Source: Escherichia coli (lineage in GTDB: Bacteria; Pseudomonadota; Gammaproteobacteria; Enterobacterales; Enterobacteriaceae). Taken from it: 64,000 nucleotides of DNA. The stretch is taken from assembly GCF_041248615.1 (NCBI RefSeq), contig NZ_CP158426.1; one strand, given 5' to 3'. Shown in pieces: positions 19,201-22,200 of the stretch. A program made the position numbers. Position 1 is the stretch's first letter; each line of letters opens with the position of its first letter.

Positions 19201-22200
19201 TGCGGTGCTTTCACTGGAAGGCGACGCGACAGATCTCGCCGCTCTCCAGGACGATCCGCAGTCGATTGTGGTAAACGGCGGTGTGCTCGATCTCTCTGAT
19301 TTCTCCACCTGGCAGAGCGGTACATCATACAACGATGGCCTTGAAGTCAGCGGCAGCGGCGGTACGGTTATCGGCAGTCAGGATGTGGTGGATCTCGCAG
19401 GTGGCGACAATTTGCATATCGGCGGCGACGGTAAAGATGGCGTCTACGTGGTGATCGATGCGGGCGACGGGCTGGTTAGCCTGGCAAACAATAATAGTTA
19501 CCTGGGCACCACGCAAATCGCTTCCGGTACGCTGGTGGTGAGTGACAACTCGCAGCTTGGCAATACCGACGAAAACCGTCAGCTCATCTTTACTGATAGC
19601 CAACAACAAAGTGAGATGGAAATTACCGCTGACGTTGATACTCGTTCAGAGGCAGCAGGTCACGGGCGTGATATTGAAATGCGCGCCGACGGTGAAGTGG
19701 CGGTTGATGCGGGGGTAGACACGCAGTGGGGCGCACTGATGGCTGACAGCAGCGGGCAGCATCTGGATGAGGGTAGCACATTGACTAAAACGGGAGCGGG
19801 TACGCTGGAAATGACCGCCAGTGGTACGACGCAGTCGGCGATACGTGTCGAAGAAGGCACGCTGCAAGGCGATGTTGCGGATATCTTCCCTTATGCTTCG
19901 TCGCTGTGGGTCGGTGACGGGGCAACGTTCAAGACTGGCGCGGATCAGGATATTCAGTCAATTGATGTTACTTCCAGCGGCACTATCGACATCAGCGATG
20001 GTACGGTTTTGCGCCTGACCGGGCAGGATACTTCCGTCGCCCTTAATGCCTCACTGTTTAACGGCGATGGGACGCTGGTGAATGCCACCGATGGCGTGAC
20101 GTTGACAGGCGAGCTTAATACCAACCTTGAAACTGACAGCCTGACTTATCTTTCCGACGTAACAGTTAATGGCAATCTGACCAATACGTCCGGTGCGGTC
20201 AGCCTGCAAAATGGCGTCGCCGGCGACACGCTGACGGTAAACGGTGATTATACCGGCGGCGGTACGCTACTGCTCGATAGCGAATTAAACGGCGATGACT
20301 CGGTAAGCGATCAATTGGTGATGAACGGTAATACTGCTGGCAACACAACTGTGGTGGTTAACTCCATTACAGGGATTGGTGAGCCGACATCGACAGGCAT
20401 TAAAGTGGTTGATTTCGCAGCTGATCCCACGCAGTTTCAAAACAATGCGCAGTTCAGTCTGGCAGGCAGCGGCTACGTCAATATGGGAGCGTATGACTAC
20501 ACGCTGGTGGAAGATAACAACGACTGGTATCTGCGATCGCAAGAAGTAACGCCACCATCGCCACCTGATCCAGACCCGACTCCTGATCCAACACCCGACC
20601 CGGAACCTACGCCTGCCTACAAGCCGGTGTTGAATGCCAAAGTTGGTGGATATTTTAATAACCTGCGGGCGGCAAATCAGGCGTTTGTGATGGAGCGACA
20701 CGATCACGCTGGTGGCGATGGTCAGACGCTGAATTTACGTGTTATCGGCGGAAATTATCATTACACAGCAGCGGGGCAACTGGCTCAGCATGAAGACACT
20801 TCTACGGTGCAGCTTAGCGGCGACTTGTTTAGCGGGCGCTGGGGCGCGGATGGCGAGTGGATGCTTGGGGCGGTTGGTGGCTACAGTGATAACCAGGGCG
20901 ACAGCCGCTCGAATATGACCGGAACTCGCGCCGATAACCAGAACCACGGTTATGCGGTTGGGCTGACCTCAAGCTGGTTTCAGCACGGTAAGCAGAAGCA
21001 GGGGGCCTGGCTGGATAACTGGTTGCAGTACGCGTGGTTTAGCAATGATGTTTCTGAACATGAAGATGACGTGGATCATTACCATTCGTCGGGGATTATC
21101 GCCTCGCTGGAAGCGGGGTATCAGTGGTTACCGGGGCGTGGTGTGGTGATTGAACCGCAGGCGCAGGTGATTTATCAGGGCGTGCAGCAGGATGATTTTA
21201 CCGCCGCTAACCGTGCGCGCGTGTCACAATCGCAGGGCGATGATATTCAGACGCGGCTGGGTTTACACAGCGAATGGCATACCGCTGATGGTGTCACGCC
21301 AACTTTAGATGTGAATTATTATCACGATCCCCATGCGACGGAAATTGAAGAAGATGGCAGCACTATCAGTGACGATGCGGTGAAGCAACGGGGTGAAATA
21401 AAAGTGGGAGTCACGGGCAATATCAGTCAGCGAGTTTCGCTGCGCGGCAGCGTGGCGTGGCAGAAAGGGAATGATGATTTTGCCCAGACGGCAGGGTTTT
21501 TGTCGATGACGGTGAAATGGTAGCTGCTTTGCGCCCGGCATTGTAGCCGGATGTGGTGCGAGCACCTTATCCGGCTAACAATTTTATTTATTCTGCGTGT
21601 GCAGCATATAGTTCACATCAACGCCGGGGCCGAGCTTAAAGGTGTTAGTGATAGGGTTGTAATGCAGCCCGGTTATATGTCGCTCTTTAAGGCTTGTCTG
21701 ATCTACCCAGCCAAGCAGTTCTGCCGGTTTAATAAACTTCTTCACATCATGCGTACCTTTGGGCACCATGCGCAAAATATATTCCGCGCCAACCACCGCC
21801 ATCAGCCACGACTTGCCGTTACGGTTAAGCGTCGAGAAAAAGACATCGCCGCCCGGTTTCACCAGTTGCGCACAGGCTCTGACCACTGACTGCGGATCGG
21901 GAACGTGCTCCAGCATCTCCATGCAGGTCACCACGTCATACTGTTCGGCATGTTTTGCCGCGTGCTCTTCCACGGTTTCCTGCACGTACTCTACCTGAAT
22001 GCCACTTTCCAGCGCGTGCAACTTTGCCACCTGCAATGGCTCAAAGCCCATATCCAGACCGGTCACCGTCGCGCCTTCCCGCGCCATGCTCTCGGCCAGA
22101 ATGCCGCCGCCACAACCGACATCGAGCACCTTTTTGCCAAATAAACCGCCAGCACGCTCGGCAATATAGCCCAGACGCAGCGGGTTAATGCGGTGCAGCG

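What the first reader, a model, noticed from the sequence alone, without database searches (positions are those of the whole stretch)
20551..20615. Short Pro-rich PDPTPD repeat linker in the YfaL autotransporter
The linker between passenger and translocator (PPSPPDPDPTPDPTPDPEPTP) is built from 6-codon repeat units. Such tracts vary in copy number by slippage between strains and set how far the passenger projects from the surface. This allele looks shorter than the K-12 linker as I recall it, which I hold with low confidence.
Basis: partly seen in the sequence, partly recalled or inferred. Interest (0 to 1): 0.3.

Follow-up and report, generated by a model that had tools for sequence, protein, structure and literature searches.

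The report
Short proline-rich YfaL linker allele
This is the flexible, proline-rich spacer of the E. coli surface adhesin YfaL, present here as a minority allele 8 amino acids shorter than in strain K-12; it is an ordinary length polymorphism of a known gene.

Summary
Window 17795-21523 (+) is yfaL/EhaC, 1242 aa, matching the NCBIfam equivalog. Residues 920-940 (nt 20552-20614) read PPSPPDPDPTPDPTPDPEPTP. The tract lies between the autochaperone domain (794-904) and the pore helix plus beta-barrel (948-1241). It is the only low-confidence segment of an otherwise confident AlphaFold model. It holds 12 of the protein's 27 prolines.

K-12 YfaL has 1250 aa and carries DPDPTP x3 + DPEPTP. The window allele lacks 24 nt (8 codons), with a 3-nt microhomology (TCC) at the junction.

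Linker length varies among complete E. coli genomes. Classes relative to the window are 0, +6, +9, +12, +24, +30 and +36 nt, plus one 168-nt deletion relative to K-12. The exact window linker occurs in 173 of 5426 genomes (3.2%). The K-12 length is the majority, about 62% of a sample of 100.

Two caveats apply. The basic unit is the X-Pro dipeptide (6 nt), and the 18-nt unit is degenerate at DNA level. The alleles are stable within lineages and are not hypervariable.

The effect on passenger projection (about 2.5 nm if extended) is inferred, not tested. This is an ordinary allele of a known gene and of low interest.

The parts
17795..21523 (+). yfaL/ehaC coding sequence (1242 aa plus TAG stop), a type Va AIDA-I-family autotransporter adhesin
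   Evidence: ORF list and translation. 100% match to annotated yfaL in NZ_OW967178.1. NCBIfam NF007285 equivalog at 2719.7 bits against a cut-off of 1459. Pfam PATR, Chlam_PMP, AC_1 and Autotransporter domains.
20174..20506 (+). Autochaperone domain (aa 794-904), the last folded part of the passenger
   Evidence: Pfam PF18883 AC_1, E=2.3e-18. Homology to the AIDA-I transport unit 4MEE and to the IcsA autochaperone structures 3ML3/5KE1. Beta strands run up to fragment residue 135, which is aa 914 (DWYLR), in the AF2 model.
20552..20614 (+). Pro-rich acidic linker PPSPPDPDPTPDPTPDPEPTP (aa 920-940); the strictly alternating (X-Pro)8 core is 20567-20614
   Evidence: Sequence and translation. 12 of 21 residues are Pro, 5 are acidic and none is basic. 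It is the only AF2 segment with pLDDT below 50: fragment 140-161, which is aa 919-940.
20581..20583 (+). Junction of the 24-nt (8-codon) deletion relative to the K-12-type linker; its position is ambiguous within the 3-nt microhomology TCC
   Evidence: Alignment of alleles. K-12 reads ...GACCCGACTCC[CGATCCTGATCCCACGCCGGATCC]TGATCCAACA..., and the window reads ...GACCCGACTCCTGATCCAACA....
20564..20599 (+). Degenerate 18-nt tandem repeat (about 1.9 copies) detected at the DNA level
   Evidence: Tandem Repeats Finder: period 18, 88% matches, score 58. The repeat finder D1: copies at 20559-20576 and 20577-20594, 72% identity.
20636..20680 (+). Predicted alpha-helix (aa 948-962) that plugs the barrel pore, immediately C-terminal to the linker
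   Evidence: AF2 helix H169-183 of the fragment. It aligns to the helix region of AIDA-I 4MEE.
20726..21517 (+). 12-stranded beta-barrel translocator (aa 978-1241)
   Evidence: Pfam PF03797 at aa 981-1220, E=3.1e-33. TIGR01414 at aa 807-1242. AF2 strands at fragment 199-462.

Best explanation
The tract encodes an intrinsically unstructured, acidic (X-Pro)n spacer. It tethers the folded passenger of the YfaL/EhaC autotransporter (beta-helix plus autochaperone domain) to the alpha-helix that sits in the pore of its outer-membrane beta-barrel.

Its DNA is a degenerate repeat: 6-nt X-Pro units, arranged in longer alleles as 18-nt DPDPTP units. It contains many short direct repeats such as CCTGATCC. 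Occasional in-frame deletions or duplications between these repeats, by replication slippage or short-homology recombination, have produced a small set of length alleles in E. coli.

These alleles are inherited stably within lineages. They are also moved between backgrounds by the recombination that makes yfaL mosaic.

The window carries the shortest common allele found (21 aa). It is 8 residues shorter than the majority K-12-type (29 aa), probably through a 24-nt deletion. If the spacer is extended, this would bring the base of the passenger about 2.5 nm closer to the membrane, most likely with little functional consequence.

What is shown: gene identity, position, disorder, allele lengths and frequencies, and repeat-flanked junctions. 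What is inferred: the slippage mechanism, the direction of change (deletion rather than insertion), and any effect on projection.
For: Identity and architecture:
- Gene identity.
- Position between AC_1 (794-904) and the pore helix and barrel.
- The linker is the only segment with pLDDT below 50, in a model with mean pLDDT 83.9.

A spacer role rather than a sequence-specific role:
- Homologues of 30-37% identity from other bacteria carry Pro-rich tracts of unrelated sequence and length at the same position. The tracts lie between the conserved NWYL(T/R)S and RPEAGSY motifs. Examples are TPDPTPDPTPG, VPDPEPTPEPTPEPK and DPGPGPGPGPDPDPDP.
- AIDA-I itself has only a short, Pro-poor junction there.
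- TibA is described as having a proline-rich domain between its junction region and its membrane domain (PMC3835316).

Allele series across E. coli:
- Residues between WYLRS and AY(Q/K)PV number 25, 27, 28, 29, 33, 35 and 37.
- Every indel seen is in frame.
- Several are clearly independent events with direct repeats at their edges. These are 24 nt in the window type, 18 nt in 042 against AR_0137, a different 18 nt in UTME-3, 12+3 nt in CU37RT-2, and 168 nt between two copies of CTGATCCCACGC in VTB97022v.
- In a five-allele whole-gene alignment, all gap columns lie in the linker, although the alleles differ by 101-195 substitutions.

Frequencies:
- The exact window linker is in 173 of 5426 genomes.
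- Systematic samples (n=100) give +24 nt about 62%, +6 about 22%, +30 about 7%, and all others rare.

Stability:
- All 173 copies are identical over 60 nt.
- All K-12 and O157:H7 genomes sampled have the +24 class.
Against: - No experiment or structure shows the conformation or length of the linker on the cell surface. Low pLDDT is only an indication of disorder.
- Slippage is inferred from repeat-flanked junctions. The window's junction has only 3 nt of perfect microhomology (TCC, inside an imperfect 9-nt repeat).
- The short linker occurs on at least two flanking haplotypes. In the 250 nt upstream, the window is identical to K-12 but differs at 18 sites from the other short-linker carriers E1 and MS14384. 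Recurrent deletion and recombination cannot be separated.
- The polarity of change rests only on the longer forms being commoner and present in a divergent Escherichia sp. (P0007).
- Class frequencies other than the 173 are estimates from 100 sampled rows, not a full census.
- The complete-genome collection is biased towards clinical lineages.
Confidence: 0.85

Rival explanations
1. Linker length is an adaptive, selected trait. Different lengths would tune how far the adhesin projects through the O-antigen or capsule layer, or would vary a surface-exposed epitope, as with the repeat-number variants of Bordetella pertactin.
For: - The tract is the indel hotspot of the gene, and all observed indels keep the reading frame.
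- Several independent events exist.
- A Pro-rich tract of variable length is kept at this position in distant homologues.
- Pertactin alleles differ in the number of GGxxP and PQP repeats (PMC3966384; PMC3766922).
- yfaL deletion changes adherence of O157:H7 (PMC7864753).
Against: - Only a handful of length classes exist, and one of them holds about 62% of genomes.
- Classes follow allele families rather than varying within clones.
- The DNA repeat is degenerate, which is not what is expected for a tract selected for mutability.
- The maximal difference of about 16 residues is small against a passenger of roughly 890 residues.
- No association with serotype or capsule was tested.
- In-frame bias is expected for any functional gene.
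Confidence: 0.1
2. The short linker is an assembly or sequencing artefact caused by collapse of a repeat.
For: - Short-read assemblies of Shigella sonnei break inside this tract.
- Some run-level assemblies show frameshifted linkers (P0028, P0029, P0032, P0063).
Against: - The identical 60-nt sequence is present in 173 independent complete genomes from many laboratories.
- The whole tract is under 90 nt with degenerate units, well within any read length.
- The deletion is in frame, and the gene is annotated as intact.
Confidence: 0.01
3. The tract is primarily a processing or secretion element rather than a passive spacer. It could be a site where the passenger is released (for example by an outer-membrane protease). 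Alternatively it could be a non-folding segment needed to start hairpin threading through the barrel before the autochaperone domain folds.
For: - It lies exactly where many autotransporters are cleaved, within or near the linker (review PMC9289746).
- It is immediately N-terminal to the pore helix.
- It would be among the first passenger-side segments to emerge if secretion proceeds C-to-N. This rests on established knowledge of type Va secretion, not on a test made here.
Against: - Group 8 autotransporters, including YfaL, are described as outer-membrane anchored adhesins (PMC9289746).
- X-Pro bonds are poor protease substrates (general knowledge).
- Length and sequence vary freely between alleles and homologues, which argues against a specific recognition site.
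- Nothing here tests cleavage or secretion kinetics.
Confidence: 0.04

Closest known systems
YfaL/EhaC of E. coli K-12 MG1655 and O157:H7 EDL933 (reference alleles, 1250 aa)
   Same: It is the same gene at the same locus (nrdA-ypaB-yfaL-ubiG-gyrA). It has the same domain order and the same start (PPSPPDPDPTP) and end (DPEPTPAY) of the linker.
   Different: The window allele lacks 24 nt / 8 residues: DPDPTP-DPTP-DPEPTP against DPDPTP x3-DPEPTP. The whole gene differs from K-12 by 195 substitutions. It has Lys instead of Gln two residues after the linker (AYKPV). EDL933 additionally has a Pro-to-Gln change inside the linker.
yfaL alleles of strains MS14384, E1 and VCSW5, and of strain 042
   Same: MS14384, E1 and VCSW5 carry the identical 21-aa linker. 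Strain 042 is the nearest allele upstream of the linker. The flanking NrdA and GyrA proteins have the same accessions in all of them.
   Different: MS14384 and E1 differ from the window at 18 sites in the 250 nt just upstream of the linker. Strain 042 has a 25-aa linker with DPAPDPTP at its end (+12 nt).
Proline-rich domain of the TibA self-associating autotransporter (ETEC)
   Same: It is a Pro-rich segment placed between the junction (autochaperone) region and the membrane-embedded domain of an AIDA-I-type autotransporter (PMC3835316).
   Different: TibA's domain is about 50 residues (627-677), against 21 here. Sequence similarity between the two tracts was not tested. No strain-to-strain length comparison for TibA was made here.
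Pertactin polymorphic regions 1 and 2 (GGxxP and PQP repeats), Bordetella pertussis
   Same: They are Pro-containing short peptide repeats in a type Va autotransporter whose copy number differs between alleles (PMC3966384; PMC3766922).
   Different: The pertactin repeats are described as part of an antigenically relevant, vaccine-monitored polymorphism. No immune role is known for the YfaL tract, and its repeat units and sequence are different.
AIDA-I transport unit (PDB 4MEE)
   Same: It has a homologous autochaperone, helix and barrel, E=1.9e-35 over nearly the whole 463-aa fragment.
   Different: AIDA-I has only a short Pro-poor junction (HLPTSDTRQYRPENGSY) where YfaL has the Pro-rich tract.

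Membership tests
YfaL/EhaC (NCBIfam NF007285, equivalog) | Full-length match above the curated cut-off | tested here: met
   2719.7 bits against a cut-off of 1459. Residues 1-1242 align to profile positions 1-1250.
YfaL/EhaC (NCBIfam NF007285, equivalog) | Conserved chromosomal position between nrdA/ypaB and ubiG/gyrA | tested here: met
   The same neighbours are annotated in NZ_OW967178.1, K-12, E1, 042 and MS14384. The window ORFs agree.
Classical (type Va) autotransporter, AIDA-I type | C-terminal 12-stranded beta-barrel with a pore-spanning alpha-helix | tested here: met
   PF03797 E=3.1e-33. TIGR01414. 4MEE E=1.9e-35. The AF2 model has a helix at 948-962 and strands at 978-1241, with pTM 0.80.
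Classical (type Va) autotransporter, AIDA-I type | Beta-helical passenger with an autochaperone domain at its C-terminal end | tested here: met
   PATR, Chlam_PMP and AC_1 hits. IcsA autochaperone structures 3ML3 and 5KE1 are matched.
Classical (type Va) autotransporter, AIDA-I type | N-terminal Sec signal peptide | not tested
   The N-terminus MRIIFLRKEYLSLLPSMIASLFSANGVAAA looks like a signal sequence, but no predictor was run.
Pro-rich inter-domain spacer of autotransporters (as in TibA) | Pro-rich, non-globular segment between the junction/autochaperone region and the membrane domain | tested here: met
   12 of 21 residues are Pro. It lies between AC_1 and the helix. pLDDT is below 50 only there. 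The TibA description is in PMC3835316.
Pro-rich inter-domain spacer of autotransporters (as in TibA) | Extended conformation that sets the distance of the passenger from the membrane | not testable with these tools
   This needs biophysical or surface-accessibility measurements. The figure of 0.31 nm per residue for a polyproline-II helix is general knowledge.
Contingency locus / phase-variable simple sequence repeat | Long, near-perfect tandem repeat whose unit changes shift the reading frame or expression | tested here: not met
   The units are 6 or 18 nt and only 72-88% alike. All indels in the complete genomes examined are in frame.
Contingency locus / phase-variable simple sequence repeat | Frequent length change within closely related strains | tested here: not met
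   173 genomes share the identical 60-nt tract. All sampled K-12 and O157:H7 genomes share one class. Singleton variants such as UTME-3 and VTB97022v show that events do occur but are rare.
Repeat-number polymorphic autotransporter region (pertactin-like) | Alleles differ by the number of short peptide repeat units | tested here: met
   There are 3 DPDPTP units in K-12 and AR_0137, against 2 in 042 and UTME-3. X-Pro dipeptide differences occur elsewhere.
Repeat-number polymorphic autotransporter region (pertactin-like) | Region is an immune target under diversifying selection | not testable with these tools

The most novel reading that the evidence does not exclude
Linker length in YfaL is tuned by selection to the thickness of the surrounding O-antigen or capsule layer, or it serves as an antigenic variant. 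Under this reading the 21-aa allele of this phylogroup-D-like lineage would be a functional adaptation that alters adhesin exposure, rather than a neutral deletion.
Probability: 0.08. Interest if true: 0.35.

Novelty: already known. Interest (0 to 1): 0.12.

Why it matters
It matters little. The gene, its architecture and this exact allele are already in public databases: the same protein is annotated in RefSeq, and the same linker is present in 173 complete genomes.

The small added value has three parts:
- There is now a documented allele series for the YfaL spacer: 21 to 33 residues counted from PPSPP to the last Pro.
- The spacer is shown to be the indel hotspot of the gene.
- People who use YfaL as a surface-display scaffold, or who type yfaL alleles, should expect length variants here.

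If linker length did affect exposure through the LPS layer, it would offer a simple natural series for testing how spacer length affects adhesin function. Nothing here suggests that it does.

Tried and rejected
- **Anchor search.** The first fuzzy-anchor extraction of linkers failed because short anchors matched spuriously. It was redone with longer best-match anchors.
- **Literature.** Searches for YfaL together with 'proline-rich', and for 'proline-rich region' + AIDA-I + passenger, found nothing. The YfaL surface-display paper PMC3346495 is not held. One pertactin paper held no usable text on PQP.
- **Exact census of every length class.** Junction-specific BLAST queries were considered. Only the short class can be separated cleanly by E-value, because longer alleles cross-align with small gaps. 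Frequencies of the other classes are therefore taken from two systematic 'spread' samples.
- **Antisense ORF 20285-20707 (-).** It stays open in K-12, 042, E1 and MS14384. However, it encodes an R/W/C/I/V-rich sequence of the kind expected from reading a coding strand backwards. It is unannotated in all records, so it was rejected as a gene (annotations).
- **Assembly artefact.** Rejected on the basis.
- **Phase-variable contingency locus.** Rejected; see the membership test.
- **Acid-labile Asp-Pro bonds as a release mechanism.** Considered and not pursued. There is no evidence for it, and the known cleavage chemistry needs harsher conditions (own knowledge).
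Full report
**1. The observation**

The bases at 20551-20615 lie in a 1242-codon ORF at 17795-21523 on the + strand. In that frame they read ...WYLRSQEVTPPSPPDPDPTPDPTPDPEPTPAYKPVLNAKVGG.... The quoted peptide PPSPPDPDPTPDPTPDPEPTP occupies codons 920-940, which is nt 20552-20614.

The tract is not a chance feature.
- It holds 12 prolines in 21 residues, while the other 1221 residues hold 15.
- No other 21-residue window has more than two prolines. The binomial tail is about 3e-18.
- It has five acidic residues and no basic ones.

At the DNA level the repeat is modest in this allele.
- Tandem Repeats Finder reports period 18, 1.9 copies, 88% matches and score 58 at 20564-20599.
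- The repeat finder reports two 18-nt copies that are 72% alike.
- The Pro codons are mixed: CCA, CCT, CCG and CCC.

**2. What the gene is**

- A 501-nt query around the tract matches 5419 of 5426 complete E. coli genomes. Every listed hit lies under a feature annotated 'yfaL: AIDA-I family autotransporter adhesin YfaL/EhaC'.
- Two genomes are 100% identical, for example NZ_OW967178.1. There the gene is 3729 nt and lies between nrdA/ypaB and ubiG/gyrA.
- The protein matches the NCBIfam equivalog NF007285 at 2719.7 bits against a cut-off of 1459. Residues 1-1242 align to profile positions 1-1250.
- Pfam finds passenger repeats (PATR, Chlam_PMP), the autochaperone domain AC_1 at 794-904, and the autotransporter beta-domain at 981-1220.

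**3. Where the tract sits**

- The C-terminal 463 residues are homologous to the solved AIDA-I transport unit 4MEE (E=1.9e-35) and to the IcsA autochaperone structures.
- An AlphaFold2 model of residues 780-1242 was built on a 10-sequence alignment. It has mean pLDDT 83.9 and pTM 0.80.
- The model shows beta structure up to residue 914 (DWYLR), a helix at 948-962, and barrel strands at 978-1241.
- Its only segment with pLDDT below 50 is residues 919-940, which is exactly the Pro-rich tract.

The tract therefore joins the last folded element of the passenger to the helix that plugs the barrel pore. By the established topology of type Va autotransporters (review PMC9289746), this places it at the extracellular mouth of the barrel.

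**4. Comparison with K-12 and other alleles**

- K-12 MG1655 yfaL is 3753 nt / 1250 aa. Its linker is PPSPPDPDPTPDPDPTPDPDPTPDPEPTP.
- The window lacks 24 nt. K-12 reads ...GACCCGACTCC[CGATCCTGATCCCACGCCGGATCC]TGATCCAACA.... The junction is ambiguous over a 3-nt microhomology, TCC, at window 20581-20583.

I fetched 21 further alleles. The residues between WYLRS and AY(Q/K)PV number as follows.

| Residues | Strains |
|---|---|
| 25 | window, isolate 362, E1, VCSW5, MS14384 |
| 27 | O15:H12, EcPF20, UTME-3 |
| 28 | CU37RT-2 |
| 29 | 042, O169:H41 |
| 33 | K-12, EDL933, 20AR0300, FDAARGOS_1300, R13 |
| 35 | AR_0137, JNE070796, EC23-1020 |
| 37 | 2020CK-00188 |

The 37-residue form also occurs in an Escherichia sp. 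protein, P0007.

Several differences are clearly separate events.
- AR_0137 against 042 is a clean loss of one 18-nt DPDPTP unit.
- UTME-3 is K-12-like but lacks a different 18 nt, between two CCTGATCC repeats.
- CU37RT-2 lacks 12 nt between CCCGAC repeats and 3 nt in a CCG run.
- VTB97022v has an in-frame 168-nt deletion relative to K-12. It lies between two copies of CTGATCCCACGC, one in the autochaperone domain (window 20421-20432) and one in the linker.

In a whole-gene alignment of five alleles that differ by 101-195 substitutions, every gap column lies in the linker. Gene lengths suggest that B2-type alleles carry one further 6-nt indel elsewhere.

**5. Frequencies**

- The 60-nt core of the window linker was searched at E<=1e-10, so that split matches drop out. 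It is present and identical in 173 of 5426 genomes. One more hit is the +6 variant UTME-3.
- Two systematic samples down the ranking were used (40 and 60 rows). Length was read from the span of the match.

| Class (nt relative to window) | Rows out of 100 |
|---|---|
| +24 | 62 |
| +6 | 22 |
| +30 | 7 |
| 0 | 4 |
| +12 | 1 |
| +36 | 1 |
| +9 | 1 |
| large deletion | 2 (the same genome both times) |

- The nearest relatives of the window allele split between 0 and +12.
- All sampled K-12 derivatives and O157:H7 strains are +24, as are UTI89 and the ST131 strains. The STEC O111:H8 and O121:H19 strains are +6.

Length therefore follows allele families. The tract is an indel hotspot on evolutionary time, not a rapidly changing repeat.

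**6. Unit size and mechanism**

- In K-12-type alleles the peptide repeat DPDPTP is perfect three times, but the three 18-nt DNA units are only 72-83% identical (sequence).
- The observed steps are 3, 6, 12, 18, 24 and 168 nt.
- The elementary unit is therefore the X-Pro dipeptide. The six-codon unit is a higher-order pattern, and the window allele no longer shows it cleanly (DPDPTP-DPTP-DPEPTP).
- Junctions flanked by short direct repeats fit replication slippage or short-homology recombination. This is an inference.

yfaL is also mosaic. In the 250 nt just upstream of the linker, the window is identical to K-12 and has one difference from 042. In the same stretch it differs at 18 sites from E1 and MS14384, which share its short linker. 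Either the same deletion arose twice, or recombination with a breakpoint next to the linker moved it. I cannot tell which.

**7. Function**

Homologues at 30-37% identity come from Trabulsiella, Enterobacter and unnamed metagenomic sources. All carry Pro-rich tracts of different sequence and length at the same place, between the conserved NWYL(T/R)S and RPEAGSY motifs. AIDA-I has only a short Pro-poor junction there. TibA is described as having a proline-rich domain between its junction region and its membrane domain (PMC3835316).

This pattern points to a spacer role that depends on composition rather than sequence. Eight residues of an extended polyproline-II-like chain amount to about 2.5 nm (general knowledge, 0.31 nm per residue). 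That is small next to a passenger of roughly 890 residues. Whether it changes adhesion is untested.

YfaL itself is a known adhesin. It belongs to group 8 of the classification in PMC9289746, and its deletion alters O157:H7 adherence (PMC7864753).

**8. Comparison with what is known, and verdict**

- This is the known gene yfaL/ehaC, with a known kind of inter-domain Pro-rich spacer and an ordinary repeat-associated length polymorphism.
- The polymorphism is analogous to the GGxxP and PQP repeat-number variants of pertactin (PMC3966384; PMC3766922).
- I found no paper describing the YfaL linker polymorphism. The alleles are, however, all in public genomes.
- It fails the tests for a phase-variable contingency locus: the units are in frame, the repeat is degenerate, and 173 copies are identical.

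Interest is low.

Noticed in passing
L017/L019 nt 1-30; L021 nt 1840-1909 (Shigella sonnei contigs); equivalent to window about 20552-20614: Dozens of S. sonnei short-read assemblies break inside the linker. Upstream contigs end at ...PPSPPNPNPTPDPDPTPDP, and a 306-aa downstream fragment (P0012, 303 members) starts at APTPAYQPV. A second break lies near residue 300 of the gene. This suggests that IS elements are inserted in yfaL, one of them within the Pro-rich tract, which would make it a pseudogene in S. sonnei.
   Followed up: partly
L010 (NZ_CP178670.1, strain VTB97022v); the upstream repeat arm corresponds to window 20421-20432: There is an in-frame 168-nt deletion relative to K-12 (144 nt relative to the window). 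It lies between two copies of CTGATCCCACGC, one in the autochaperone domain (FAADPTQ) and one in the K-12-type linker. It removes the end of the autochaperone domain. The window allele lacks the linker copy of this repeat.
   Followed up: yes
window 20295-20544 (yfaL gene nt 2501-2750): yfaL is mosaic. This stretch is identical to K-12 and has one difference from strain 042. It differs at 18 sites from E1 and MS14384, the other carriers of the short linker. Elsewhere in the gene K-12 is the most distant allele.
   Followed up: partly
window 20621-20623: Codon AAG gives Lys (AYKPV) two residues after the linker. Every other fetched genomic allele has CAG, Gln. Lys was seen only in the window-type allele, in isolate 362, and in one metagenome protein, P0020.
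   Followed up: no
window 21524-21583 (yfaL-ubiG spacer): The spacer is 60 nt in the window, as it is in 042, E1 and isolate 362. K-12 and MS14384 carry an extra REP-like palindromic insert of about 67 nt (GCCTGATAAGACGCG...CGTCGCATCAGGC). The sequence around the stop codon also differs, TAG against TAA.
   Followed up: partly
L011 (EDL933), linker: O157:H7 EDL933 has a Pro-to-Gln change (CCG to CAG) inside the linker, giving DPDPTQDPDPTP. This breaks the X-Pro alternation.
   Followed up: no
P0044 (ENA metagenome contig, 5005 nt): This protein is YfaL-like up to ...NPTPPPDPDPTPDPEPTPDP. It then continues into an unrelated Asn-rich and Lys-rich C-terminus carrying PF25833. It is probably a chimeric metagenome assembly joined at a Pro-rich, PDP-encoding stretch.
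   Followed up: no
P0028, P0029, P0032, P0063 (Logan run-level assemblies): The reading frame shifts inside the linker, for example ...PPDPDPTPDQHPTRNLRLPTSRC. These could be real frameshift alleles or assembly and sequencing errors in the repeat.
   Followed up: no
summary lines: One of the 5419 yfaL matches lies on a record labelled as a plasmid rather than a chromosome. It may be a mislabelled replicon or a large chromosomal segment on a plasmid.
   Followed up: no
window 20285-20707 (- strand): A 140-codon antisense ORF with a GTG start overlaps the linker. It stays open in K-12, 042, E1 and MS14384. Its product is R/W/C/I/V-rich and is unannotated everywhere, so it is judged spurious.
   Followed up: partly
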